From: a virus
Lineage: Duplodnaviria; Heunggongvirae; Uroviricota; Caudoviricetes
Length of the DNA stretch: 48,409 nucleotides
IMG/VR virus record: IMGVR_UViG_646564533_000016
Strand: one strand, 5' to 3'
Shown here piece after piece: positions 91-48,409 of this stretch (positions are counted from its first letter, which is position 1; every line of letters begins with the position of its first letter). The notes beneath the pieces are model-generated. The model was given only the letters and a program-made list of their open reading frames with translations, was not told where the DNA came from and ran no database searches. Both the position numbers and the translations under genes were made by a program.

Positions 91-165
91 ATGACGTTGT
101 CTCCTTATTTGCAAGAGGTGGCGAAGCGCCGCACTTTTGCCATTATTTCTCACCCCAATAATTAA
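91..165 (+). pseudogene. prfC: 5' fragment of host prfC (peptide chain release factor 3) interrupted by prophage insertion
   Basis: ATG at 91 translates [22 protein letters not shown], matching the PrfC N-terminus as I recall it, then diverges (NN-stop) at about 157 where AT-rich phage DNA starts. Confidence 0.6.
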
Positions 166-385: not shown

Positions 386-1609
386 ATGGCGCTGTCTGAT
401 GCGTGGTTGCGTTCAGTCGTTGGAAAGGAACGTGATAAGGTTTTGGTTAAATCCGATCGTGATGGTCTGTCTGTTAGAGTATCACCGAAAGGTCGCGTAG
501 TGTTCCAATATCGTTATCAGTGGGCGGGGAAAGGTGAGCGTCTTGATATCGGAACTTACCCAGCAACTGGACTAAAAGAGGCCAGAGAAGAAGTTATCCG
601 TCTTCGTGGTGAACTCGAGTCAAACCGCAATCCACGATTGGTCAAGCTGGCAGAAAAACGTAAAGCTACTGAAGCCATGACGGTAGAATCTGTGATCCGT
701 GCTTGGTATGAAGCATATTGTGTAAAAAATAAAAAAGGTTCTGAACAGATACTCCGCTCGTTTGAGCTGCACCTGTTCTCTAAAATCGGGAATATCCCTC
801 ACGATGCAGCTACATTGCATGATTGGTTAGAAGTCCTGGAGCCTCTTAGCACTAAGACTCCAGCAATAGCAGACCGATTGCTAATTAACGCAAAGCAGGC
901 CCATGTCTGGGCGTATAAGAGAAAGCTCATTGAAACTCGCCCGCTGTCGGATATCACGGGTAAAGATATGGATATCCGTAAAGGTCAGAAGAAACGGTTT
1001 CTGACACATGATGAAATTAAAATCCTTTATGCTGCGATCGATGGTTCTCGAATGGTTCCTAAATACCGGGCCTTCATTAAACTATTGCTGCATTTTGGTT
1101 GCCGTAGTTCAGAGCTAATTACTGCCAAGGTGGACGATTTTGATTTCATTAATAAAATATGGACTGTACCACCAGAACGACATAAGACAGGGGATATAAC
1201 AGGCGAACCGCTAAAGCGGCCCATTATTGAACCGGTTGAAGAGCTTATAAAATACGTTATCTCTATGAACAACGGTTCCGATATGCTTTTTACTAAGGAA
1301 GGAAGCAGGGAACCAGTTGGTCGGACATCATTGCAGTCGCTGCCTTACAATTTAATGCAGTACGCATGGCGGCGTTTGGGGTATCAATTTCCTCATTGGT
1401 CTCTTCATGATTTGAGACGAACTGCACGAACAAACTTTTCTGATCTTACTGCGCCTCATATTGCTGAAATAATGCTCGGTCATAAACTGCCAGGTGTATG
1501 GCAAGTTTATGACAAGAGTGATTATCTAGAAGAACAGCGTAAAGCCTACCAGGCATGGTGGGAGAGAGTTGAATCGATTGTTACTTGTACTCGTTCAGGC
1601 TCGAAATGA
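386..1609 (+). CDS. Tyrosine site-specific integrase, P4/IntS-like
   Basis: 407 aa; N-terminal arm-binding-type region (MALSDAWLRS...GLSVRVSPKGRVVFQYRY) and C-terminal catalytic region (HDLRRTART...); RBS AAGGTGAG before ATG; lies next to the host junction. Confidence 0.93.
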   Translation: MALSDAWLRSVVGKERDKVLVKSDRDGLSVRVSPKGRVVFQYRYQWAGKGERLDIGTYPATGLKEAREEVIRLRGELESNRNPRLVKLAEKRKATEAMTVESVIRAWYEAYCVKNKKGSEQILRSFELHLFSKIGNIPHDAATLHDWLEVLEPLSTKTPAIADRLLINAKQAHVWAYKRKLIETRPLSDITGKDMDIRKGQKKRFLTHDEIKILYAAIDGSRMVPKYRAFIKLLLHFGCRSSELITAKVDDFDFINKIWTVPPERHKTGDITGEPLKRPIIEPVEELIKYVISMNNGSDMLFTKEGSREPVGRTSLQSLPYNLMQYAWRRLGYQFPHWSLHDLRRTARTNFSDLTAPHIAEIMLGHKLPGVWQVYDKSDYLEEQRKAYQAWWERVESIVTCTRSGSK

Positions 1610-1791
1610 TATTTTGCGTAGCTAGAACGCAATCAAATCTAGCAGTCCGCTTTGTTCGGAGTTCGGACATTATGAGTTGGCAAGTAAAGTAGCTTGCTAG
1701 GAAGCCGGATTTGCACGGTCGGTATAATAAGATGTAACCCCTTGCCTTCATTTACTCGAATGAACGTGCACATTGGATAGGAGGAAAAGGA

Positions 1792-4700
1792 ATGCAATTC
1801 ATTACCAACGGCCCTGATATTCCTGATGAGCTTTTGCAGGCGCACGAGGAAGGGCGCGTTGTGTTCTTCTGTGGAGCAGGCATTTCCTACCCTGCTGGTT
1901 TACCTGGTTTCAAAGGGTTGGTAGAACTAATTTACCAGAGGAACGGAACAACACTTTCAGAAATTGAGCGTGAGGTTTTCGAGCGTGGGCAATTTGACGG
2001 CACATTAGATTTGCTGGAACGGCGCTTACCAGGGCAGCGTATAGCCGTCCGACGCGCGTTGGAAAAAGCCCTTAAGCCAAAGCTCCGTCGTAGGGGCGCT
2101 ATTGATACTCAGGCGGCGCTGTTACGTTTAGCCCGTAGCCGCGAGGGTGCCCTTCGATTGGTCACTACCAACTTTGACCGTCTCTTTCATGTGGCAGCTA
2201 AACGTACAGGCCAGGCTTTTCAGGCCTATGTAGCGCCGATGCTGCCAATTCCAAAAAACAGCCGCTGGGATGGACTTGTATACCTGCATGGGCTGTTACC
2301 GGAAAAGGCGGATGATACTGCCCTGAATCGTCTGGTTGTTACCAGCGGTGACTTTGGCTTGGCTTATCTCACTGAGCGTTGGGCAGCTCGCTTTGTGAGT
2401 GAGTTATTTCGTAACTATGTGGTCTGCTTCGTTGGCTACAGCATCAACGACCCGGTACTGCGCTACATGATGGATGCGCTTGCAGCAGATCGGAGGCTCG
2501 GTGAAGTCACACCACAAGTATGGGCACTGGGGGAGTGTGAGCCGGGGCAGGAGCACCGGAAAGCCATCGAGTGGGAGGCCAAAGGGGTCACTCCTATCCT
2601 TTACACCGTACCGGCGGGCTCCACTGATCATTCAGTGCTGCATCAAACGTTGCACGCTTGGGCAGATACTTATCGAGATGGTATACAGGGCAAAGAGGCT
2701 ATAGTCGTCAAACATGCTCTGGCCCGCCCGCAGGACAGCACTCGTCAGGACGATTTCGTTGGTCGGATGTTGTGGGCCTTGTCAGATAAATCAGGTTTAC
2801 CAGCAAAACGCTTTGCGGAACTCAATCCTGCTCCGCCGCTGGATTGGTTATTGAAAGCTTTCTCGGACGAACGATTTAAATACAGCGATCTGCCACGCTT
2901 TTGTGTATCTCCGCATGTCGAAATTGACCCGAAACTCCGATTCAGTCTGGTTCAGCGTCCTGCGCCCTATGAGCTGGCCCCGCAGATGTCGCTGGTTTCT
3001 GGATGTGTCAGTGCTAGCAAATGGGATGACGTAATGTCCCATATAGCCCGTTGGCTAGTTCGTTATCTGGGCGACCCTAGGTTGATCATATGGATTGCTG
3101 AACGCGGCGGACAAATACACGACCGTTGGATGTTTCTGATTGAGAGCGAACTAGATCGCTTAGCAGCACTGATGCGGGAGCGTAAGACTTCTGAGTTAGA
3201 TGAAATTCTCTTGCATTCCCCCCTGGCTATTCCTGGTCCACCTATGTCTACTTTATGGCGGCTTCTGCTTAGTGGTCGTGTGAAATCGCCATTGCAGAAC
3301 CTGGATTTGTATCGTTGGCAAAACCGCTTAAAGAATGAAGGCTTGACGACTACATTGCGCTTGGAGTTACGCGAGTTGCTTTCTCCCAAGGTTATGTTGA
3401 GGCGGCCGTTTCGCTATAGTGAAGACGATTCGAGCAGCACTGATGAACCCTTGCGAATCAAGCAATTGGTGGATTGGGAGCTGGTGCTGACTGCTGATTA
3501 CGTACGTTCAACCCTGTTCGACCTTGCTGACGAGTCATGGAAATCGTCCTTGCCATACCTGTTGGAAGATTTTCAGCAGTTGTTGCGTGATGCACTGGAC
3601 TTGTTGCGGGAGTTGGGAGAGTCCGACGATCGTCACGACCGCTCGCATTGGGATTTGCCGTCCATCGCTCCGCACTGGCAGAACCGGGGGTTCCGCGATT
3701 GGGTGAGCCTGATTGAATTACTTCGGGATTCATGGTTAGCCGTTCGAGCCAAAGACAGCGATCAGGCCACGCGCATTGCTCAGAATTGGTTTGAGTTGCC
3801 ATATCCCACCTTCAAACGTCTGGCACTGTTTGCCGCAAGCCAAGACAACTGCATACCACCTGAGCGGTGGGTTAATTGGTTGTTAGAGGACGGTTCATGG
3901 TGGTTGTGGGCCACGGATACTGGGCGAGAGGTATTCAGACTGTTTGTTTTGCAGGGACGACATCTGACAGGAATTGCACAAGAGCGTCTGGAAACTGCTA
4001 TCTTGGCAGGGCCTCCGCGCGAGATGTACGAGGATAATTTGGAAGCAGACAGGTGGCATTATTTGGTGGCTCATTCCGTCTGGTTGTGTCTAGCGAAGCT
4101 CAGGGGAGCGGGCCTTGTTTTGGGAGAGTCTGCGGCTACACGTTTGACGGAAATATCCACAGCATACCCAAAATGGCAACTGGCAACCAACGAGCGTGAT
4201 GAATTCTCTCACTGGATGAGCGGAACCGGTGATCCAGGCTTCGAGGAGAGTATAGATGTCGACATTGCGCCCCGTAAGTGGCAGGAATTAGTGCAATGGC
4301 TCGCAAAGCCTATGCCAGAAAGACTGCCTTTCTATGAGGACACTTGGAGTGATGTTTGCCGTACGCGCTTTTTTCACAGTCTGTATGCGTTACGTAAACT
4401 ATCACAAGATGATGTGTGGCCTGTTGGTCGGTGGCGTGAAGCTCTGCAGACTTGGGCTGAACCAGGGATGATTTTGCGTTCGTGGCGGTACGCCGCACCG
4501 TTGGTGCTTGACATGCCTGACGCAGTACTTCAGGAGATTTCCCTCGCTGTCACTTGGTGGATGGAGGAGGCTTCGAAGACCATCCTCTGCCACGAGGAGA
4601 TTCTACTGGCCCTTTGTCGTCGGGTTCTGATGATAGAAACAAGCCCAGAGTCTAGCACCATTCGAAACGGAATTGAGACCTATGATCCTGTTTCTACGGC

Positions 4701-5619
4701 GATCAATCATCCCATTGGGCATGTCACGCAATCACTGATCACCCTATGGTTCAAACAGAACCCGAATGACAATGATTTGCTTCCTGTTGAATTGAAAACA
4801 CTTTTCACCAAATTGTGTAATGTACAGATAGAGCTATTCCGCCATGGTCGGGTGTTGCTGGGGTCGCGGCTGATCGCATTTTTTCGCGTAGATCGACCTT
4901 GGACCGAACAGTATCTATTGCCCTTGTTTGCTTGGAGTAATCCCGTCGAAGCAAAAGCTGTGTGGGAAGGCTTCCTCTGGTCGCCACGCCTGTATGAACC
5001 GTTGCTGATAGCTTTCAAGTCAGATTTTTTGGAGAGCGCCAATCACTATTCTGATCTTGGCGAGCACCGGCAGCAATTCGCTACTTTCCTGACTTATGCA
5101 GCTCTGGGCCCTACCGAGGGATATACCGTGGAGGAGTTCCGAACGGCAATTAGTGCTCTTCCACAAGAAGGTCTGGAGGTAGCCGCGCAGGCGTTATACC
5201 AGGCACTTGAAGGTGCGGGCGATCAGCGCGAGGAGTATTGGAAAAATCGTGTCCAGCCATTTTGGCAACAGGTTTGGCCAAAGTCCCGCAACTTGGCCAC
5301 CCCACGCATATCCGAATCGTTGACTCGTATGGTGATTGCTGCCCGAGGTGAATTTCCGGCGGCTTTGGCAGTGGTGCAGGACTGGCTGCAACCGCTCGAA
5401 CACCTTAGCTACGACGTTCGCCTTTTGCTAAAATCAGATATTTGCAGCCGATATCCTGCGGACGCTCTATCCCTGCTGAATGCCGTGATTGCCGAACAAC
5501 ACTGGGGGCCTCGAGAGTTGGGGCAATGCTTGCTTCAAATTGTTCAAGCTGCTCCACAACTGGAGCAAGATGTTCGTTATCAGCGATTAAATGAATATTC
5601 TCGAAGGCGCAGCGTGTGA
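1792..5619 (+). CDS. Large SIR2-domain protein (SIR2_2-type N-terminal NADase domain plus ~950-aa helical W/L-rich C-terminal region); candidate defence-associated sirtuin (DSR-like) effector
   Basis: 1275 aa; strong RBS AGGAGG 8 nt before ATG; N-terminal motifs VVFFCGAGISYPAGLP, VTTNFDRL, VYLHG, VGYSINDP typical of the SIR2_2 family; no Walker A motif found; sits between int and xis. Confidence 0.85.
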   Translation: MQFITNGPDIPDELLQAHEEGRVVFFCGAGISYPAGLPGFKGLVELIYQRNGTTLSEIEREVFERGQFDGTLDLLERRLPGQRIAVRRALEKALKPKLRRRGAIDTQAALLRLARSREGALRLVTTNFDRLFHVAAKRTGQAFQAYVAPMLPIPKNSRWDGLVYLHGLLPEKADDTALNRLVVTSGDFGLAYLTERWAARFVSELFRNYVVCFVGYSINDPVLRYMMDALAADRRLGEVTPQVWALGECEPGQEHRKAIEWEAKGVTPILYTVPAGSTDHSVLHQTLHAWADTYRDGIQGKEAIVVKHALARPQDSTRQDDFVGRMLWALSDKSGLPAKRFAELNPAPPLDWLLKAFSDERFKYSDLPRFCVSPHVEIDPKLRFSLVQRPAPYELAPQMSLVSGCVSASKWDDVMSHIARWLVRYLGDPRLIIWIAERGGQIHDRWMFLIESELDRLAALMRERKTSELDEILLHSPLAIPGPPMSTLWRLLLSGRVKSPLQNLDLYRWQNRLKNEGLTTTLRLELRELLSPKVMLRRPFRYSEDDSSSTDEPLRIKQLVDWELVLTADYVRSTLFDLADESWKSSLPYLLEDFQQLLRDALDLLRELGESDDRHDRSHWDLPSIAPHWQNRGFRDWVSLIELLRDSWLAVRAKDSDQATRIAQNWFELPYPTFKRLALFAASQDNCIPPERWVNWLLEDGSWWLWATDTGREVFRLFVLQGRHLTGIAQERLETAILAGPPREMYEDNLEADRWHYLVAHSVWLCLAKLRGAGLVLGESAATRLTEISTAYPKWQLATNERDEFSHWMSGTGDPGFEESIDVDIAPRKWQELVQWLAKPMPERLPFYEDTWSDVCRTRFFHSLYALRKLSQDDVWPVGRWREALQTWAEPGMILRSWRYAAPLVLDMPDAVLQEISLAVTWWMEEASKTILCHEEILLALCRRVLMIETSPESSTIRNGIETYDPVSTAINHPIGHVTQSLITLWFKQNPNDNDLLPVELKTLFTKLCNVQIELFRHGRVLLGSRLIAFFRVDRPWTEQYLLPLFAWSNPVEAKAVWEGFLWSPRLYEPLLIAFKSDFLESANHYSDLGEHRQQFATFLTYAALGPTEGYTVEEFRTAISALPQEGLEVAAQALYQALEGAGDQREEYWKNRVQPFWQQVWPKSRNLATPRISESLTRMVIAARGEFPAALAVVQDWLQPLEHLSYDVRLLLKSDICSRYPADALSLLNAVIAEQHWGPRELGQCLLQIVQAAPQLEQDVRYQRLNEYSRRRSV

Positions 5620-5786
5620 AAGTGACAGGCGTTGGACAGTGCGAACTGTGGAGCCTAACAAGGTAAAGACACTCTAACTGATAATGCTGCGCCGCTCGTG
5701 CAATGCAATACAGTTTTTATCTAGCGGTGAATTATGGTGTTAAAAGTTAGCCCCTGACACAGGGTGGGTAGTTGGCTCTGTGTCAT

Positions 5787-5824
5787 TGATGGGTATTAGT
5801 TCTGATATGAGCTAATACCCATCA
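5787..5824. repeat. Perfect 13-bp inverted repeat (TGATGGGTATTAG / CTAATACCCATCA) with 12-nt loop, between the convergent SIR2 gene and xis
   Basis: Read directly; a second shorter inverted repeat (TGACACAG / CTGTGTCA) lies just upstream at about 5752..5784; neither is followed by a U-run. Confidence 0.6.
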
Positions 5825-6016
5825 CTCAATAACTCCAGCAAACCTGTATATCTTGCGTGATGCCCATTTATTTGGGCAGGATTTAATATCAGGATCTGGA
5901 AAGTCAGGCCTGTATTTCTGGCCAGTTCTCCTGTTTACGCTGTTCCAGCGAAGAACGGTCGATACTGAAACGCCACAGAAGTCGGCGACTTGTTTAGTTG
6001 TCATTAAGTTGTTCAT
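5822..6016 (-). CDS. AlpA/Xis-family excisionase or DNA-binding regulator (HTH)
   Basis: 64 aa; TTKQVADFCGVSVSTVLRW...FPDPD pattern typical of AlpA/Vis/Xis partners of P4-type integrases; strong SD AGGAGGTGA; ATG overlaps stop of upstream gene (TAATG). Confidence 0.7.
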   Translation of the reverse strand: MNNLMTTKQVADFCGVSVSTVLRWNSVNRRTGQKYRPDFPDPDIKSCPNKWASRKIYRFAGVIE

Positions 6017-7652: not shown

Positions 7653-8477
7653 TCAGGCGGTGAAAGTACCAATAAAGGTTTCTACTTTGCTGTCTTTAAA
7701 TTTCTCAACAAGCAGATCACGAAATTCGTTAGCCATTTCTTCCTGCACCGCTTCCAGCTGAATAATGCGCAGAACCAGTACAGGACGATCGCCAGTGATA
7801 ATGCTGAGGCGTAATTTAAACGGACGTTCTTTAAGGCCTTCAAACGGAACGCATTTAAATTCAAATGCCACTGGCATAATGTCTTTAGTCTTCGCTTCGA
7901 CAGACTCCATCAGGGAGCGTTTGCCGCTGAAGTCATTATCTTCAAAATCAGCGGTCTGGTTTGCTTCAATCGTGATTTTACGGACCGCCGCAGCCGCTTT
8001 TGTTGCCTGAATGGTGTCACCATTAGCATCAAAGCCCACAAGGTAGTCGGCCCAGTCTTCAATCCATTCTGCCAGTGATTTCTGGGAGTTACGCTCGCCA
8101 TTAACAGACAACAGAGCAGAGAACGGTGCTGTCTTTTTCAGTTTGAGAGTGGCGGTGTTATCTGCGTGACCTGGTTCATCAATAGTACCCAGGTTAAGCA
8201 CACTGACGGCACGCATATTATCAGCATCGATAAAGCAGCGGGTGCCTTCATCTGCAAGATCTTTAGAATAACGGGTAAAGTCATCGATGCTGGCAGTGGA
8301 AAGCGCACCACGGAAACGGAAGCGATTTAAATTAAATTTTTCCAGATCATGAATGCGGAAATTCTCAGGCAATGCCACAGCATCGGCACCAATCTTACTG
8401 ATAATTTCATTAACACCCTGAGCAGAAATAAGGGCATGGATTTGATTAATTGCGGTTGCGTCTAAGTTCTGAGACAT
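7653..8477 (-). CDS. yfdQ: YfdQ-like phage protein (DUF2303 family)
   Basis: 274 aa, same size and position as CPS-53 YfdQ; family assigned from memory. Confidence 0.7.
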
Positions 8478-17510: not shown

Positions 17511-17723
17511 TCATGAAAGGTAAACATTGGCAGCTGATGGTCCACGCAGACCATTTATCCGGCAAAATTCCACGCGTAATCCGGTGGTAATTTCTTCTGC
17601 ATCGCGGAGATTGAGCGCTGAAACATGAAGCTGGACATCGATACGACCATCGGATGGGGTTATAAGACCTTTGCCGCTTTTGCCGTCAAAGGTTTTGAGA
17701 ATTCCTGTCATTTTACGGGACAA
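17511..17723 (-). CDS. cspF: Cold-shock-like protein, CspF/CspH type
   Basis: 70 aa; MSRKMTGI(L/V)[18 protein letters not shown]...[13 protein letters not shown]. Confidence 0.85.
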
Positions 17724-18023
17724 AAAAATTCCTTAATACTGATAACTTGGCGCACTATACACACGTTCCTGAAGAAAGCTATAGTTTTTTGATGGGGTTG
17801 AAGATGGCTGGATGTCTAAAATAAACATTGCTTCATATGTTCAACTATGCGTTAATGATTGCGTCGGTTTGAAGAACAGACGATATACGAAGTAGTTTAC
17901 TAAAGCAGTTCTCATTTCAGGTGTTATTCACTTATTCCTTCTTTGAGTCTCTCCAATTAAGTACGAAGTCGTTTCTGTTATACAAGCCATTTATGCCGAA
18001 AGGCTCAAGTTAAGGAATGTAGA

Positions 18024-18239
18024 ATGTCAAATAAAATGACTGGTTTAGTAAAATGGTTTAACGCTGATAAAGGTTTTGGCTTTATTTCTCCTGTTGATGG
18101 TAGTAAAGATGTGTTTGTGCATTTTTCTGCGATTCAGAATGATAATTATCGAACCTTATTTGAAGGTCAAAAGGTTACCTTCTCTGTAGAGAGTGGTGCT
18201 AAAGGTCCTGCAGCAGCAAATGTCATAATTACTGATTAA
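18024..18239 (+). CDS. cspB: Cold-shock protein CspB-like
   Basis: 71 aa; [38 protein letters not shown]; divergent from the cspF-like gene. Confidence 0.9.
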
Positions 18240-18520
18240 AATTCATAGTTTGTCTGTATACGATAACGAAGAAGGCTGATGCCTGAGTGGAGATACAGAC
18301 AGAGTGGTGAATATTGGATCTCTTTAATAAAGAGTAAGGAGGTCCAATACATGAAACAATGGCCAGCATATTTGGCAATAACTTAATCAGGAAAAGTATG
18401 CTAACCATTGTGGTGAAGTGCAGGTTTGCTGCATGAATAGTTTTACAGCAGAAGCTAACTGCTGGCATAGCAAAACAAAGTGCGTAAGTGGATGACTCCC
18501 ACAAAAAGTACCACAATATT

Positions 18521-18546
18521 AAACCCGCTCAGGCGGGTTTTTTATT
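18521..18546 (+). terminator. Intrinsic terminator downstream of the cspB-like gene
   Basis: ACCCGC-TCAG-GCGGGT hairpin plus T-run. Confidence 0.75.
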
Positions 18547-18602
18547 ATCTGCTTTAAATATGTTATTAAAATATAAAAAATACTTGTTACGAATAAAATC
18601 AA

Positions 18603-18773
18603 TCAAGCTACAGCTTTAAGATTTGTCTGGAATACTTTGTTGCAATGAGGGCAGATCAAAAGGGCACCTTTTTGTACTCTTGAAAAACTGTGTTCTGACT
18701 CTTGGGTGCAGTTTGGGCAGGAACATTTAACGAGATAATTACGGCGTGATTTTGAGTCTTTACGTTCTGACAT
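18603..18773 (-). CDS. Small zinc-ribbon protein (two CxxC pairs)
   Basis: ATG at 18773 (MSERKDSKSRRNYLVKCSCPNCTQ...CPHCNK) with SD AGGAAA; 56 aa. Confidence 0.55.
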   Translation of the reverse strand: MSERKDSKSRRNYLVKCSCPNCTQESEHSFSRVQKGALLICPHCNKVFQTNLKAVA

Positions 18774-18991
18774 AGGCTTTTCCTGTATAAATGGCCGTAT
18801 ACAGTACACTAAATATGAAAACATATCTCGTATTATTATTTAATATATGATTTTCTTTTAAAATAATTACCCACATTTTTAATGTGTCTGTTTTTTAGCG
18901 CCGTTGAGAACAACGTTTGCTATAAAAACTACCCCATAGACTCCGATCTTTTCAAACATATTGCACCATCTGTGTACATCGGGGTGAGGAT

Positions 18992-19207
18992 ATGAAATCA
19001 ATGGATAAGTTAACAACAGGTATCGCCTATGGCACATCGGCTGGTAATGCTGGTTTCTGGGCATTGCAGTTACTCGATAAAGTAACTCCGTCACAGTGGG
19101 CTGCAATCGGTGTGCTGGGTAGTCTGGTATTTGGCTTGCTGACGTACCTGACAAACCTTTATTTCAAGATTAAAGAAGACAAGCGTAAGGTTGCACGGGG
19201 AGAGTAA
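18992..19207 (+). CDS. Class II holin (phage-21 S21-type pinholin) with dual-start motif
   Basis: 71 aa; MKSMDK... with Met1/Met4 dual start; two TMDs ([17 protein letters not shown] and [18 protein letters not shown]). Confidence 0.9.
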
Positions 19208-19211
19208 TTCA

Positions 19212-19556
19212 ATGACACAAAACTATGAACTGATTGTGAAAGGGATCCGCAATTTTGAGAATAAAGTTGCGGTAACTGTAGCATTAAGGGACAAAAAACG
19301 CTTTGACGGTGAAATTTTTGACCTGGACATCTCGCTGGACCGTGTTGAAGGTGCCGCGCTGGAGTTTTATGAGGCAGCAGCCAGAAGGAGCATCAGACAG
19401 GTCTTCCTGGAAGTTGCAGCCGGGTTATGTGAAGGGGATGAGCAGTCGCCGGAAAAGCGCCCCGTAATTTTAGAGGCGCAGAATGTGTGGATAACCTACA
19501 AAGGAAAGCTACCAGGAAGAATTACTGATTCTCTGAAGACTCCACCGAAATGGTAA
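19212..19556 (+). CDS. Hypothetical protein in the lysis cassette
   Basis: ATG at 19212 (MTQNYELIVKG...) preceded by GGGGAGAG; 114 aa. Confidence 0.6.
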   Translation: MTQNYELIVKGIRNFENKVAVTVALRDKKRFDGEIFDLDISLDRVEGAALEFYEAAARRSIRQVFLEVAAGLCEGDEQSPEKRPVILEAQNVWITYKGKLPGRITDSLKTPPKW

Positions 19557-19794
19557 TTTTACCAGCATATTTTTCTTCCAGTAATGCCGCCAGCCACTTG
19601 AAAGAATTTTGTTGTTCCTGGGACCATTTGGGGTTGCGTGATTCAAGCAGGAGCGATGCCAGTGTTGGTTGCATTTGTTCTCTGGGAATTGATAAGGCCA
19701 AATATGAAAATGCAACAGTGAGGGCATTTACATCATCCCGAAGCTTTGAAATGCAGTCGAGCAACTCCTGTAGAGAAATGGTGTTATTGTCCAT
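19522..19794 (-). CDS. Hypothetical protein, opposite strand to the lysis genes
   Basis: 90-aa ORF with protein-like composition filling the gap between the holin-adjacent gene and the endolysin. Confidence 0.35.
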   Translation of the reverse strand: MDNNTISLQELLDCISKLRDDVNALTVAFSYLALSIPREQMQPTLASLLLESRNPKWSQEQQNSFKWLAALLEEKYAGKITISVESSENQ

Positions 19795-19899
19795 AAATAA
19801 TCCTCTTGATTGTCTTTACCTTTTCCCCGCCTGATTCAACAGGCCGGGACAGATAAACATATCCAGGGTTCAGAAACCGATAAATCCTGATAAATATCC

Positions 19900-20921
<1,022 letters not shown>

Positions 20922-21286
20922 ATGTAGATTAACATTAAATCGGATTATTTTTAGCGCTGAATGTGAAATTTAAATAAAAAGGACTCTTCCATGAGTCAAA
21001 ATCCTTGAAATCTTAAGGGTAAGATAAAAGGTCATTAGACAGAATGACACGTTTTATTAATAAATAAAGCTATTGTTTCATTCGTGTGTTTTTCTTTACA
21101 AAAGTAATCCTTGCTATGGTTGGTTAATCATGCGTTAATGGTGTTCTGGTTTGTTACAAAATTATCTGAAGCAGTCATTGTTATAATTTTATTATTTGTA
21201 CCTCTTGAGATTTCCTTGTTGGTTTTTCTCTCTGATATTTTTTTCGGACCATTCTGCCCAAGGGCTCACTTCTTCAAAAGGTAATA

Positions 21287-21502
21287 ATGATGTCTAACAA
21301 AATGACTGGTTTAGTGAAATGGTTTAACCCTGAAAAAGGTTTTGGTTTCATCACGCCGAAAGATGGTAGCAAAGATGTGTTTGTCCATTTCTCAGCTATT
21401 CAGAGCAACGATTTCAAAACGTTAACTGAGAATCAGCAAGTCGAATTTGGTATTGAGAACGGACCTAAAGGCCCCGCGGCTGTTCATGTAGTGGCACTTT
21501 GA
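21287..21502 (+). CDS. cspI: Cold-shock protein CspI-like
   Basis: [49 protein letters not shown]. Confidence 0.9.
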
Positions 21503-21710
21503 GGTAGAAAATATTACAAACCATATTCACTTTAGATGCCCGTGTTGCCATGGTTCTCAGTATAGAACATCATCTTTTGATGTTTCTGACAGGAATCCTT
21601 TCGGGGCAAAATGTATCTTTTGTAAATCAATGATGATTACATTTGATAATATTTCACAATACTTAAATGTTAGCCGTCTGTCGTTAGATTTAAGAAAGTG
21701 AAAATGAAGG

Positions 21711-21731
21711 CTCCTTCGGGAGCTTTTTTGC
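21711..21731 (+). terminator. Intrinsic terminator
   Basis: GCTCC-TTCG-GGAGC hairpin followed by TTTTTT. Confidence 0.6.
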
Positions 21732-21773
21732 TTAGTGTCTAGTCGATGGATACTCACATATTACGGTAACATC

Positions 21774-22004
21774 ATGAAAAAAATAATAGTTTTTTTTAAC
21801 TCTGAACCAGCAATGGTAGTGCCAGTGATGACCGGAGTTAACACCATCATGCGTGAATATCCAAATGGCGAAACAACACATCTCACTGTAATGGCTGCAG
21901 GGTTTCCATCTCTGACCGGAGATCATAAAGTCATTTATGTAGCAGCGGATCGACATGTAACTTCAGAAGAAATTCTGGAAGCAGCAATGAGACTCTTGAA
22001 TTGA
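21774..22004 (+). CDS. Hypothetical moron protein
   Basis: ATG at 21774 (MKKIIVFFNSEPAMVVPV...); no clear RBS. Confidence 0.45.
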   Translation: MKKIIVFFNSEPAMVVPVMTGVNTIMREYPNGETTHLTVMAAGFPSLTGDHKVIYVAADRHVTSEEILEAAMRLLN

Positions 22005-22176
22005 TTTCATTCTAATGCCTTGATAATAAAGGATAATCATCTTTATCTGTTTGTGCGAAATTTAGACTGTCGTATGTTGATTATTGCGATGTTTCATCTT
22101 ATCTTTTATACGTTTGCTCCATATAATTGACACTACTGTGTACCAGGAAAGTCATAACAGACTAAAAGAGGAAATG

Positions 22177-22350
22177 ATGAACATTGAAGAGTTAAAAACA
22201 AAAACAGAAGCAGATATTTCTGAATATATAACAAAAAAAATTATTGAGCTTAAGAAAAAGACCGGGAAAGAAGTTACCAGTATCCAGTTTACTGCACGGG
22301 AAAAAATGACTGGTCTTGAAAGCTATGATATCAAGATTGATTTAATCTAG
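22177..22350 (+). CDS. gnsB: GnsA/GnsB-family protein
   Basis: MNIEELKTKTEADISEYITKKIIELKKKTGKEVTSIQFTAREKMTGLESYDIKIDLI; SD AAAGAGGA. Confidence 0.8.
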   Translation: MNIEELKTKTEADISEYITKKIIELKKKTGKEVTSIQFTAREKMTGLESYDIKIDLI

Positions 22351-47206: not shown

Positions 47207-47797
47207 TTATATGTCAGGTGTCTGAAGTTTTGCTTTGGCTCTTAAAATGGTTTGCCGCGAGGTTTTGAATTCCCGGGCAATGGCACTTATACTTACACCT
47301 GACTTAATTCGTTCGAATACCACCTGTTTCTGTTCTTCATTTAACACAGGTGGTCGACCAAAACGTTTCCCTGCGCCGCGGGCTCTTACTATCCCGGAAT
47401 GAGTGCGTTCAAGTAAAAGGTCTCGTTCAAATTCAGCGACTGCTGAAATTACTTGCATCATCATTTTTCCTGTTGGACTGGTCAGGTCAATGCCCCCCAA
47501 TGCTAAGCAATGCACTCTGATACCTGTTTCGGTCAGTTGTTCCACTGTTTTCCTGATATCCATTGCATTACAACCAAGGCGATCCAGTTTTGTCACAATC
47601 AATTGATCACCACATTTCAGGCGAGCAAGCAACCGGTTAAAACCAGGACGCTCACTGGTTGCTGCTGAGCCGCTAATGTGTTCTTCGATTATTTGCTGAG
47701 GTTTGATTTTAAAACCTGCACTTTCGATTTCCCGGCGTTGATTTTCGGTGGTCTGATCCAGCGTTGATATCCGACAGTAAGCAAAAATTCGAGACAT
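47207..47797 (-). CDS. pin: Serine recombinase / DNA invertase, Pin (Hin/Gin) family
   Basis: [20 protein letters not shown] (catalytic Ser region) and C-terminal HTH ([19 protein letters not shown]). Confidence 0.92.
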
Positions 47798-48175
47798 AGT
47801 GAGACTCTATACGAAATTGGTGTACATATCATAATGCATATCCAAAAATTATTTCGCTTATTATTGTACATATTTGTATGTATACGTTCGAAAATAAACG
47901 AATTCGGATGCAGTCCCGTAATTTTGGTGTAACCAAAAATCGATTTTTTGAAAAATGGCTTTAACTCGGTTTGTTTTTCGAACTCCGGGCGGACTCGAGG
48001 AAGACGAATAATAGTGTTGTATGTTATTTCAACCAGATTTTAAGTTGTTTGGTCGTGGAAAAGTGGAGCAAAATGTTGTTAAAGTGGAAAAATGGTAAAA
48101 AAAGTATGTTGTTGCGGAATAACGTAGTTGTTGATATTTTTTTAATGCATTGAAAAATTATTTTTCAGGGGGGTA

Positions 48176-48409
48176 TTACACTTTACCATTTAAATTTTGG
48201 TTGTCTTTAAGAACTGATATCGCTGTTTGTAATAATTCTTTGTTATCCAGCCATGACTTTTTCTTTATGTTTCCTTCAATGTAATCAAGCAATGTTCTGG
48301 TATTGATAGGTCTTCCCTGTTTTGCTACTTCCACGACAGCATCTCCCAGGATAATTCTGACTTCAGGAAGCTGCGCAGGGAACCACTTTAGGGTGTCTTT
48401 TGATTTCAT
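48176..48409 (-). CDS. ydfK: YdfK/YnaE-family cold-shock-inducible prophage protein
   Basis: MKSKDTLKWFPAQLPEVRIILGDAVVEVAKQGRPINTRTLLDYIEGNIKK...; start codon is the last three bases of the window. Confidence 0.85.
   Translation of the reverse strand: MKSKDTLKWFPAQLPEVRIILGDAVVEVAKQGRPINTRTLLDYIEGNIKKKSWLDNKELLQTAISVLKDNQNLNGKV

What the first reader, a model, noticed from the sequence alone, without database searches (positions are those of the whole stretch)
1792..5619. 1275-aa SIR2-domain protein as single-gene cargo between int and xis: candidate NAD-depleting anti-phage effector
Seen in sequence: an ORF with a strong AGGAGG RBS whose first ~300 aa carry SIR2_2-type motifs (GAGIS Rossmann loop, TTNFD with Asn ~127, YLHG with His ~166, VGYSxxD), followed by ~950 aa of W/L-rich, probably helical sequence with no Walker A/NTPase motif. 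Established knowledge: SIR2 NADases are the effectors of Thoeris ThsA, DSR1/DSR2, SIR2-HerA and some Avs systems, and int-proximal prophage slots are defence hotspots. Inference: this is a stand-alone sensor-effector, most like the DSR architecture; I cannot tell from memory whether it belongs to DSR1, DSR2 or an uncharacterised clade, and its trigger is unknown. No partner gene is adjacent (int upstream, convergent xis downstream).
Basis: partly seen in the sequence, partly recalled or inferred. Interest (0 to 1): 0.85.

Follow-up and report, generated by a model that had tools for sequence, protein, structure and literature searches.

The report
Known anti-phage sirtuin Dsr1 on prophage
The 1275-residue gene between the prophage integrase and excisionase is Dsr1, an already named and tested single-protein anti-phage defence that destroys NAD+ when its sensor detects a phage capsid protein, so the finding is correct but ordinary.

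Summary
It is not a new clade. It matches NCBI's Dsr1 equivalog model end to end (2056 bits, cutoff 1400) and PADLOC's Dsr1 model (2730 bits). RefSeq already names it dsr1 (WP_001159679.1) in E. coli O55:H7 CB9615, to which the window is 100% identical. It is 1267/1275 residues identical to WP_029488749.1, the EcDsr1 that has been tested experimentally. The literature shows that Dsr1 proteins defend against phage and deplete NAD+, that a homologue in strain ECOR17 is countered by T4 nrdC.5, and that EcDsr1 is triggered by a phage major capsid protein through a C-terminal sensor shared with Avs7. Catalytic Asn127 and His166 are invariant in 105 homologues. The gene is the second gene of a lambdoid prophage inserted in the 5' end of prfC, between int and a confirmed excisionase. 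That slot carries different cargo in related prophages: dGTPase in one and unknown genes in five others. My structure models were poor and showed only that the C-terminal region is all-helical. Verdict: observation confirmed, interpretation supported, system already known, low interest. Side leads are the unknown cargo genes in the same slot and mosaic dsr1 alleles that break at the domain junction.

The parts
142..155 (.). attL core ATTATTTCTCACCC, the left edge of the prophage, inside the 5' end of prfC
   Evidence: The same 14 bp are annotated as 'duplication due to insertion' in Stx2c phage record LC727881. A diverged copy of the prfC 5' end sits at the start of prfC about 1 kb past the window end.
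386..1609 (+). Prophage tyrosine integrase (407 aa)
   Evidence: Pfam Phage_integrase, Arm-DNA-bind_3 and Phage_int_M; PHROG 1 integrase at 3.8e-75; RefSeq WP_001218277.1.
1610..1791 (+). int-dsr1 intergenic region. It holds a perfect TATAAT at 1723-1728 with no good -35 element, and the Shine-Dalgarno AGGAGG at 1779-1784.
   Evidence: Read directly from the sequence. The consensus promoter scan found no sigma-70 site on this strand, so the promoter is inferred. Srikant et al. used 300 bp upstream as the native promoter of the ECOR17 homologue.
1792..5619 (+). dsr1, anti-phage defence-associated sirtuin 1 (1275 aa plus stop)
   Evidence: NCBIfam NF041818 Dsr1 equivalog 2056 bits, residues 1-1271. 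PADLOC Dsr1 PDLC02183 2730 bits, residues 1-1275. RefSeq gene dsr1, WP_001159679.1. 1267/1275 identical to EcDsr1 WP_029488749.1.
1792..2781 (+). N-terminal SIR2 (SIR2_2-type) NADase effector domain, residues 1-330. Asn127 is the codon at 2170-2172 and His166 the codon at 2287-2289.
   Evidence: Pfam SIR2_2, residues 123-269, 8.9e-23. His166 aligns with His146 of the KomC NADase, the residue changed in PDB entry 9xvc 'KomC(H146N)'. Asn127 and His166 are invariant in 105/105 homologues and in a 37-56% identity family alignment. There is no CxxC zinc module.
2782..5616 (+). C-terminal all-helical sensor region, residues 331-1275
   Evidence: No Pfam domain. The AlphaFold model is 67% helix, with pLDDT 70-93 over roughly the last 450 residues. 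Foldseek returns only generic alpha-solenoids. There are 2751 cluster representatives with E<=0.001, and the 150 listed are consistent with the Dsr1 layout, with the match starting near residue 330 in full-length proteins. The literature describes a bilobed TPR-like sensor shared with Avs7 that senses the major capsid protein.
5752..5764 (-). Terminator-like hairpin followed by a T-run on the minus strand, downstream of xis. It could stop leftward prophage transcription from running antisense into dsr1.
   Evidence: Consensus scan only; the function is inferred.
5822..6016 (-). Excisionase (xis), 64 aa, convergent with dsr1
   Evidence: PHROG 1553 excisionase 7.7e-36. Pfam HTH_17 is sub-threshold. 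Not annotated in RefSeq.

Best explanation
The gene is dsr1, a one-protein anti-phage sensor-effector carried as accessory cargo by a lambdoid prophage of E. coli O55:H7. In the uninfected lysogen the protein is made from its own weak promoter and stays inactive. When a susceptible phage infects, its newly made major capsid protein is bound by the C-terminal helical-repeat sensor (residues about 331-1275). This switches on the N-terminal SIR2 domain (residues about 1-330, catalytic Asn127 and His166). The SIR2 domain hydrolyses NAD+ to ADP-ribose and nicotinamide, and the loss of NAD+ stops phage replication. Phages escape with dedicated inhibitors (T4 NrdC.5) or by rebuilding NAD+ (the NARP pathways). 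Shown here: the identity of the gene, its domains, its catalytic residues, purifying selection, and its prophage context. Shown in the literature for a 99.4% identical protein: defence and the capsid-protein trigger. NrdC.5 escape was shown for the ECOR17 homologue. Dependence on the effector domain is stated only in the preprint version of the 2026 study. NAD+ loss was shown for an E. coli dsr1 construct whose allele I did not identify, and for a DSR1 expressed in Bacillus subtilis. Inferred: that this allele behaves the same way, and how capsid binding activates a SIR2 domain without a STAND NTPase (probably relief of autoinhibition and oligomerisation, by analogy with Avs7 and DSR2).
For: Full-length matches to curated Dsr1 models: NCBIfam equivalog 2056 bits against a 1400 cutoff, and PADLOC Dsr1 2730 bits. 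Pfam SIR2_2 at 8.9e-23. RefSeq annotation as dsr1. The protein is 1267/1275 identical to WP_029488749.1 of strain NCTC9112, the accession the Gao laboratory gives for EcDsr1. Residues 1-301 are identical between the two. Asn127 and His166 are invariant in 105 close homologues and 39 diverse ones. His166 aligns with the His changed in the KomC(H146N) entry. dN/dS is 0.10-0.15 against diverged E. coli alleles. Literature: a DSR1 expressed in Bacillus subtilis depletes NAD+ on infection. ECOR17 dsr1 with 300 bp of upstream sequence protects MG1655, and T4 nrdC.5 counters it. [quoted passage not shown] An E. coli dsr1 construct lowers NAD+, and NARP3 restores it.
Against: No experiment has been done on this exact allele. 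It differs from the tested protein at 8 residues. Two of them, Ala626 and Leu918, sit where at least 90% of 105 homologues have Thr and His. The NAD+ loss reported for a DSR1 expressed in Bacillus was transient and did not collapse the culture, so an 'abortive infection' outcome is not certain. A 2026 paper still calls DSR1 'poorly characterized'. I could not confirm the Avs7-like sensor fold myself: the model was of mediocre quality and gave only generic solenoid hits, and a profile search of PDB sequences matched nothing in the sensor. No consensus sigma-70 promoter was detected upstream.
Confidence: 0.9

Rival explanations
1. The allele in this window is a Dsr1 with weakened activity or a shifted trigger range compared with the tested EcDsr1, because of its private sensor substitutions.
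For: There are 8 amino-acid differences from WP_029488749.1 against only 1 synonymous difference. Seven of the eight fall in the sensor. Ala626 and Leu918 replace residues that are conserved in at least 90% of 105 homologues.
Against: The ORF is intact. Residues 1-301 are identical to the tested protein. The same protein sequence occurs on 31 contigs in public data. An 8:1 ratio on nine changes is not significantly different from the roughly 3:1 neutral expectation (my own calculation, p about 0.3).
Confidence: 0.1
2. The protein is a conventional sirtuin, a protein deacylase or ADP-ribosyltransferase, that regulates host or prophage proteins rather than acting as an immune NADase.
For: A family profile gives weak hits to sirtuin-2, sirtuin-3 and HST2 deacetylases, confined to the Rossmann loop (E 0.005-0.04).
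Against: It matches the SIR2_2 family, not canonical SIR2. It has no CxxC zinc-binding module. Its best solved relatives are the immune NADases KomC and ThsA. The published defence phenotype and NAD+ depletion argue the same way.
Confidence: 0.02
3. It belongs to a different SIR2 defence family: DSR2, Thoeris ThsA, SIR2-HerA or Avs5.
For: These families share the SIR2 effector. There are weak PADLOC hits to ThsA (3.2e-05) and generic SIR2 models, limited to residues 13-230.
Against: No Dsr2 model was hit. DSR2 chains in the PDB match only residues 16-68, at E 0.0066. There is no ThsB or HerA neighbour. There is no Walker A or NTPase domain. The full-length Dsr1 equivalog score is far above its cutoff.
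Confidence: 0.01

Closest known systems
EcDsr1 (WP_029488749.1, E. coli NCTC9112), the Dsr1 discovered by Gao et al. 2020 and studied in Lee et al., Nature 2026 (PMC13581612)
   Same: Same length, 1275 aa, and 1267/1275 identical, including all of residues 1-301. Same position between the same integrase (WP_001218277.1) and the same downstream prophage genes at the yjjG/prfC site.
   Different: Eight substitutions, written as window residue then NCTC9112 residue: E302K, E528G, A626T, T660S, G711R, L918H, T1098I, K1214E. Ala626 and Leu918 in the window allele are rare in the family. This allele has not been tested.
Dsr1 of E. coli ECOR17 (Srikant et al., eLife 2022, PMC9391042)
   Same: An E. 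coli Dsr1 expressed from its native upstream region that protects K-12 and is overcome by T4 NrdC.5. All 72 full-length E. coli dsr1 copies in complete genomes are at least 93.9% identical in DNA to this one.
   Different: I could not retrieve the ECOR17 sequence, so its exact identity to this allele is unknown.
DSR1 tested in Bacillus subtilis (Garb et al. 2021/2022)
   Same: A single SIR2-domain protein. NAD+ depletion on infection was measured directly.
   Different: It was expressed in Bacillus subtilis. Its source organism was not checked here, and I believe from memory that it comes from Bacillus. The depletion was transient, without culture collapse. A second PADLOC Dsr1 model (PDLC04166) matches this protein only over the SIR2 region (40 bits), so some proteins called DSR1 may have an unrelated sensor.
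DSR2 (Bacillus subtilis; PDB 8k98, 8wyb and others)
   Same: One polypeptide with an N-terminal SIR2 NADase and a C-terminal alpha-solenoid sensor that binds a phage structural protein.
   Different: DSR2 senses the tail tube protein rather than the capsid protein. Sequence similarity is confined to the NAD-binding loop (E 0.0066), and no PADLOC Dsr2 hit was found.
Avs7 (STAND NTPase family; Lee et al. 2026)
   Same: Reported to share a homologous bilobed TPR-like sensor and the same trigger class, the phage major capsid protein.
   Different: Avs7 has a STAND NTPase and other effectors such as nucleases, and it recruits EF-Tu. Dsr1 has no NTPase. I could not verify the sensor homology independently.

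Membership tests
Dsr1 (defence-associated sirtuin 1) | End-to-end match to curated Dsr1 profile models above their cutoffs | tested here: met
   NCBIfam NF041818 (equivalog) 2056 bits against a 1400 cutoff, residues 1-1271 onto profile 1-1263. PADLOC PDLC02183 2730 bits and PDLC04167 4.1e-192.
Dsr1 (defence-associated sirtuin 1) | N-terminal SIR2_2-type domain with the catalytic Asn and His | tested here: met
   Pfam SIR2_2 at 8.9e-23. Asn127 and His166 are invariant in 105/105 close homologues and 39/39 diverse ones. His166 aligns with KomC His146.
Dsr1 (defence-associated sirtuin 1) | About 950-residue C-terminal helical sensor homologous to that of the validated protein | tested here: met
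   There are 7 differences in residues 331-1275 against EcDsr1. The model is all-alpha. The 150 listed sensor relatives are consistent with the same layout, and all 39 sampled carry SIR2_2.
Dsr1 (defence-associated sirtuin 1) | Single-gene system with no NTPase domain and no partner gene | tested here: met
   No Walker A motif. No other Pfam domain. The neighbours are int and xis.
Dsr1 (defence-associated sirtuin 1) | Protects against phage and lowers NAD+ when triggered | not testable with these tools
   Literature only: defence and the capsid trigger for the 99.4% identical protein, defence for the ECOR17 homologue, and NAD+ loss for an E. coli dsr1 construct and for a DSR1 expressed in Bacillus subtilis.
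DSR2 | Full-length similarity to DSR2, covering SIR2 plus the tail-tube-binding C-terminal domain | tested here: not met
   No PADLOC Dsr2 hit. PDB DSR2 chains match only residues 16-68, at E 0.0066. DSR2 is not among the Foldseek hits listed.
Thoeris ThsA | SIR2 fused to a SLOG/STALD signal-binding domain, with a TIR-domain ThsB gene adjacent | tested here: not met
   Only weak SIR2-region hits (3.2e-05, residues 13-230). No SLOG domain. No TIR gene nearby.
SIR2-HerA | Adjacent HerA-type ATPase gene | tested here: not met
   The flanking genes are an integrase and an excisionase.
Avs5 / SIR2-STAND | Central STAND NTPase with a Walker A motif | tested here: not met
   No Walker A motif, and no NTPase domain in Pfam.
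Avs7-type capsid-protein sensor module | Sensor region homologous to the Avs7 TPR sensor (bilobed, bent solenoid) | tested here: inconclusive
   The model was of mediocre quality (pLDDT 64), and the best Foldseek hits are karyopherins at TM about 0.2. The profile search of PDB sequences found nothing in the sensor. The best 150 sequence relatives listed appear to be Dsr1-type proteins or fragments, not Avs7. The claim rests on Lee et al. 2026.

The most novel reading that the evidence does not exclude
The CB9615 allele may be a natural specificity variant of Dsr1. Its private sensor changes (T626A and H918L at otherwise conserved positions, and 8 non-synonymous against 1 synonymous difference from the tested allele) could alter which phage capsids it recognises. 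One possible purpose is to avoid self-activation by the capsid protein of its own lambdoid prophage. The mosaic alleles, in which a diverged SIR2 module joins a near-identical sensor exactly at the domain junction, would then record ongoing shuffling of effector and sensor modules within E. coli.
Probability: 0.12. Interest if true: 0.35.

Novelty: already known. Interest (0 to 1): 0.08.

Why it matters
For the finding as given, very little is at stake. The gene is already named dsr1 in RefSeq, has dedicated NCBIfam and PADLOC models, and is 99.4% identical to the protein used in published defence and trigger-mapping experiments. What it does add is a clean worked example of a prophage carrying a single-gene NAD+-depleting defence in the int-xis accessory slot. 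The same gene and attachment site occur in a Stx2c-converting phage, which bears on how Shiga-toxin prophages shape the phage sensitivity of pathogenic E. coli. The more useful output is collateral. The same slot in related prophages carries five different genes with no Pfam, NCBIfam or PADLOC match. These are reasonable candidates for undescribed defence genes.

Tried and rejected
1. AlphaFold2 on residues 1-340 with 33 homologues of 86-94% identity gave an unusable model (mean pLDDT 40), so I make no fold-level claim for the SIR2 domain. The evidence for it is from profiles only.

2. AlphaFold2 on residues 301-1275 gave mean pLDDT 64 and pTM 0.43. Foldseek against the PDB returned only generic alpha-solenoids, such as transportin and importin, at TM about 0.2. 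This supports 'all-helical repeat' and nothing more.

3. Profile searches of PDB sequences with alignments A2 and A3 matched only the SIR2 region. No solved Dsr1 or Avs7 sensor was detectable.

4. The HMMER search of 1.84 billion representatives with the sensor alone listed, among its best 150, proteins consistent with the Dsr1 layout. It therefore could not test the reported link to Avs7.

5. Gao et al. 2020 is not held in the library under any id I tried. The discovery paper is cited only through later papers.

6. No supplementary tables are held for the Nature 2026 paper.

7. The consensus promoter scan found no sigma-70 site upstream of dsr1. Only a lone TATAAT is visible.

8. I considered whether the short dsr1 matches in three genomes (H78-H80) were SIR2 modules fused to other sensors. 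The two I inspected, H79 and H80, are deletion remnants in decayed prophages.
Full report
**What is there.** The window is 100% identical to E. coli O55:H7 strain CB9615, NC_013941.1 positions 5305878-5354286. The ORF at 1792-5619 (+) encodes 1275 residues from the first available start codon. AGGAGG lies at 1779-1784, 7 nt upstream of the ATG. There is no Walker A motif. Residues 321-1275 are 4.5% Trp and 14.5% Leu.

**What it is.** Three independent profile libraries identify it.
- NCBIfam NF041818, 'anti-phage defense-associated sirtuin Dsr1', is an equivalog model. It scores 2056 bits against a cutoff of 1400 and covers residues 1-1271.
- PADLOC's Dsr1 model PDLC02183 scores 2730 bits over 1-1275, and a broader Dsr1 model gives 4.1e-192.
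- Pfam places a SIR2_2 domain at residues 123-269 (8.9e-23) and nothing else.

RefSeq already annotates the gene as dsr1, product WP_001159679.1. Its 90% identity cluster has 418 member sequences, many of them named Dsr1.

The Gao laboratory gives WP_029488749.1 as the accession of the EcDsr1 it studied. I found that accession as the dsr1 product of strain NCTC9112, in the same genomic position. The two proteins are 1267/1275 identical, and residues 1-301 are the same. The finding is therefore a near-identical allele of the experimentally characterised Dsr1.

**Catalytic site and selection.**
- Asn127 and His166 are invariant in 105 of 105 close homologues, and in a 39-member alignment whose members are 37-56% identical to this protein.
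- His166 aligns with His146 of the SIR2 NADase KomC, the residue changed in PDB entry 9xvc, 'KomC(H146N)'.
- There is no CxxC zinc module of the kind found in deacetylase sirtuins.
- With a diverse family profile, the best solved relatives are the immune NADases KomC (1.3e-10) and ThsA (0.0012). DSR2 matches only the NAD-binding loop (0.0066). Nothing in the PDB sequence set matches the sensor.
- dN/dS against diverged E. coli alleles is 0.10-0.15, so the gene is under purifying selection.

**The sensor region.**
- A HMMER search with residues 331-1275 against 1.84 billion cluster representatives found 2751 relatives at E<=0.001 and 836 at E<=1e-30.
- The 150 listed are consistent with the Dsr1 layout: in full-length proteins the match starts near residue 330. 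All 39 that I sampled carry SIR2_2.
- My AlphaFold model of residues 301-1275 is mediocre (pLDDT 64; 70-93 over roughly the last 450 residues). It is 67% helix with essentially no strand.
- Foldseek returned only generic alpha-solenoids at TM about 0.2.
- The model of the N-terminal domain failed (pLDDT 40).

I can therefore say only that the sensor is an all-helical repeat region. The claim that it is a bilobed TPR-like sensor homologous to that of Avs7 rests on Lee et al. 2026.

**What the literature establishes.**
- A DSR1 expressed in Bacillus subtilis depletes NAD+ on infection. The depletion was transient and did not collapse the culture.
- The ECOR17 dsr1 gene with 300 bp of upstream sequence protects MG1655 against a T4 derivative, and the T4 early gene nrdC.5 counters it.
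- NARP1 overcomes DSR1 defence.
- An E. coli dsr1 construct lowers NAD+, and the NARP3 pathway restores it. The same paper calls DSR1 'poorly characterized'.
- A co-expression screen of 73 ZL19 genes found the major capsid protein to be the unique activator of EcDsr1-mediated cell death. [quoted passage not shown] EcDsr1 protects against only a few Drexlerviridae.
- I found no paper or PDB entry with a Dsr1 structure.

**How it most likely works.** The C-terminal sensor binds the capsid protein. This activates the SIR2 NADase, NAD+ is lost, and phage replication stops. For this allele the whole chain is inferred from 99.4% identity. The activation step itself, in a protein with no STAND NTPase, is not known for any Dsr1.

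**Context.**
- The gene is the second gene of a lambdoid prophage. The left attachment core, ATTATTTCTCACCC, is at window 142-155, within the first codons of prfC.
- The native prfC 5' end remains at 91-155. A phage-borne copy of that segment, 81% identical, heads the intact prfC about 1 kb beyond the window end.
- The same 14 bp are annotated as the insertion duplication in the Stx2c-converting phage record LC727881. That record carries this dsr1 at 99.8% identity.
- The upstream gene is the integrase. The convergent 64-aa ORF at 5822-6016 is an excisionase by PHROG 1553 (7.7e-36), although RefSeq does not annotate it.
- dsr1 is 52% G+C, against 44-47% for its neighbours.
- This dsr1 occurs in 76 of 5426 complete E. 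coli genomes, always on the chromosome. Seventy-two copies are full length.
- The integrase occurs in 700 genomes.
- Six sampled prophages have the same integrase but no dsr1. In them the slot holds a dGTPase defence gene (PADLOC 8.9e-105) or one of five different cargos with no Pfam, PADLOC or NCBIfam match.

The slot is therefore a variable accessory slot. Two of its seven alleles are known defence genes.

**Allele details.**
- The eight differences from the tested protein, written as window residue then NCTC9112 residue, are E302K, E528G, A626T, T660S, G711R, L918H, T1098I and K1214E.
- Ala626 and Leu918 are rare: at least 90% of 105 homologues have Thr and His at those positions.
- The two genes differ by 8 non-synonymous changes and 1 synonymous change. 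These numbers are too small to be significant.
- Against strains S3, F5 and GF153, the block at window about 1400-2800 is only 78-90% identical. That block covers the 3' end of int, the intergenic region and the SIR2 domain. The sensor and the outer flanks are mostly 94-100% identical. The break coincides with the SIR2/sensor junction.

**Families considered and excluded.**
- DSR2: no model hit, and only loop-level similarity.
- Thoeris ThsA: no SLOG domain and no ThsB neighbour.
- SIR2-HerA: no HerA neighbour.
- Avs5: no NTPase.

**Verdict.** It can be sharpened to Dsr1, a known, named and experimentally studied system. Novelty: already known. Interest is low for the finding itself. The unknown cargo genes in the same slot and the mosaic alleles are modest leads.

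Noticed in passing
window 1610-5821 (the int-xis slot); alternative alleles at L007:7591-8586(-), L008:7325-7777(+) and 7819-8301(+), L009:7409-8650(+), L010:7596-8822(-), L011:7500-8528(+), L012:7510-8229(+): The same integrase (95-100% DNA identity) is present in 700 of 5426 complete E. coli genomes, but dsr1 in only 76. In six sampled prophages at the same yjjG/prfC site the slot holds other cargo. One is a dGTPase defence gene (PADLOC 8.9e-105). The other five are different genes (150-413 aa) with no Pfam, PADLOC or NCBIfam match, and are candidate undescribed defence genes.
   Followed up: partly
window 1400-2800, compared with L004, L005 and L006: E. coli dsr1 alleles are mosaic. The 3' end of int, the intergenic region and the SIR2 domain are 78-90% identical (dS 0.61 for codons 1-320). 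The sensor and outer flanks are mostly 94-100% identical (dS 0.012-0.088). The break falls at about 2800, the SIR2/sensor junction, which suggests recombinational exchange of the effector module.
   Followed up: partly
window 5822-6016 (-): A 64-aa excisionase ORF (PHROG 1553, 7.7e-36) is not annotated in the RefSeq record of CB9615 or of the other strains inspected.
   Followed up: yes
window 91-159; attR at about L013:2330-2430: The prophage integrates into the first codons of prfC (release factor 3). The native 5' end is left as a pseudogene stub at attL. The phage supplies a copy of that segment, 81% identical, that heads the intact prfC at attR. The core is the 14-bp ATTATTTCTCACCC.
   Followed up: yes
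L014 (LC727881.1) 2049-5876: The only phage-collection record with this gene is a Stx2c-converting phage. It has 99.8% identical dsr1 and the same att core, so Shiga-toxin phages can carry Dsr1.
   Followed up: partly
window 1792-5619; homologues P0016-P0134: The 120 best homologues listed are 77-99% identical over the full 1275 residues. They come from distant hosts, including Vibrio cholerae, Marinobacter, Thauera, Ferrovum, Acidithiobacillus and Halothiobacillus. This is unusually high conservation for a defence gene and implies recent wide horizontal spread.
   Followed up: no
L016:6001-6675, L017:6001-6606; hits H43 and H78: Some decayed prophages at the same site retain only the first 550-2200 nt of dsr1 (H78, L016, L017), and one genome has an IS3-family insertion within the gene (H43). 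Loss of Dsr1 therefore occurs.
   Followed up: partly
window 17511-22350 and 47207-48409: The prophage late region carries a run of cold-shock protein genes (cspF, cspB, cspI, ynfQ, ydfK) and gnsB. A serine recombinase gene (47207-47797, minus strand) lies next to the tail-fibre and tail-fibre-assembly genes, which is reminiscent of tail-fibre inversion systems.
   Followed up: no
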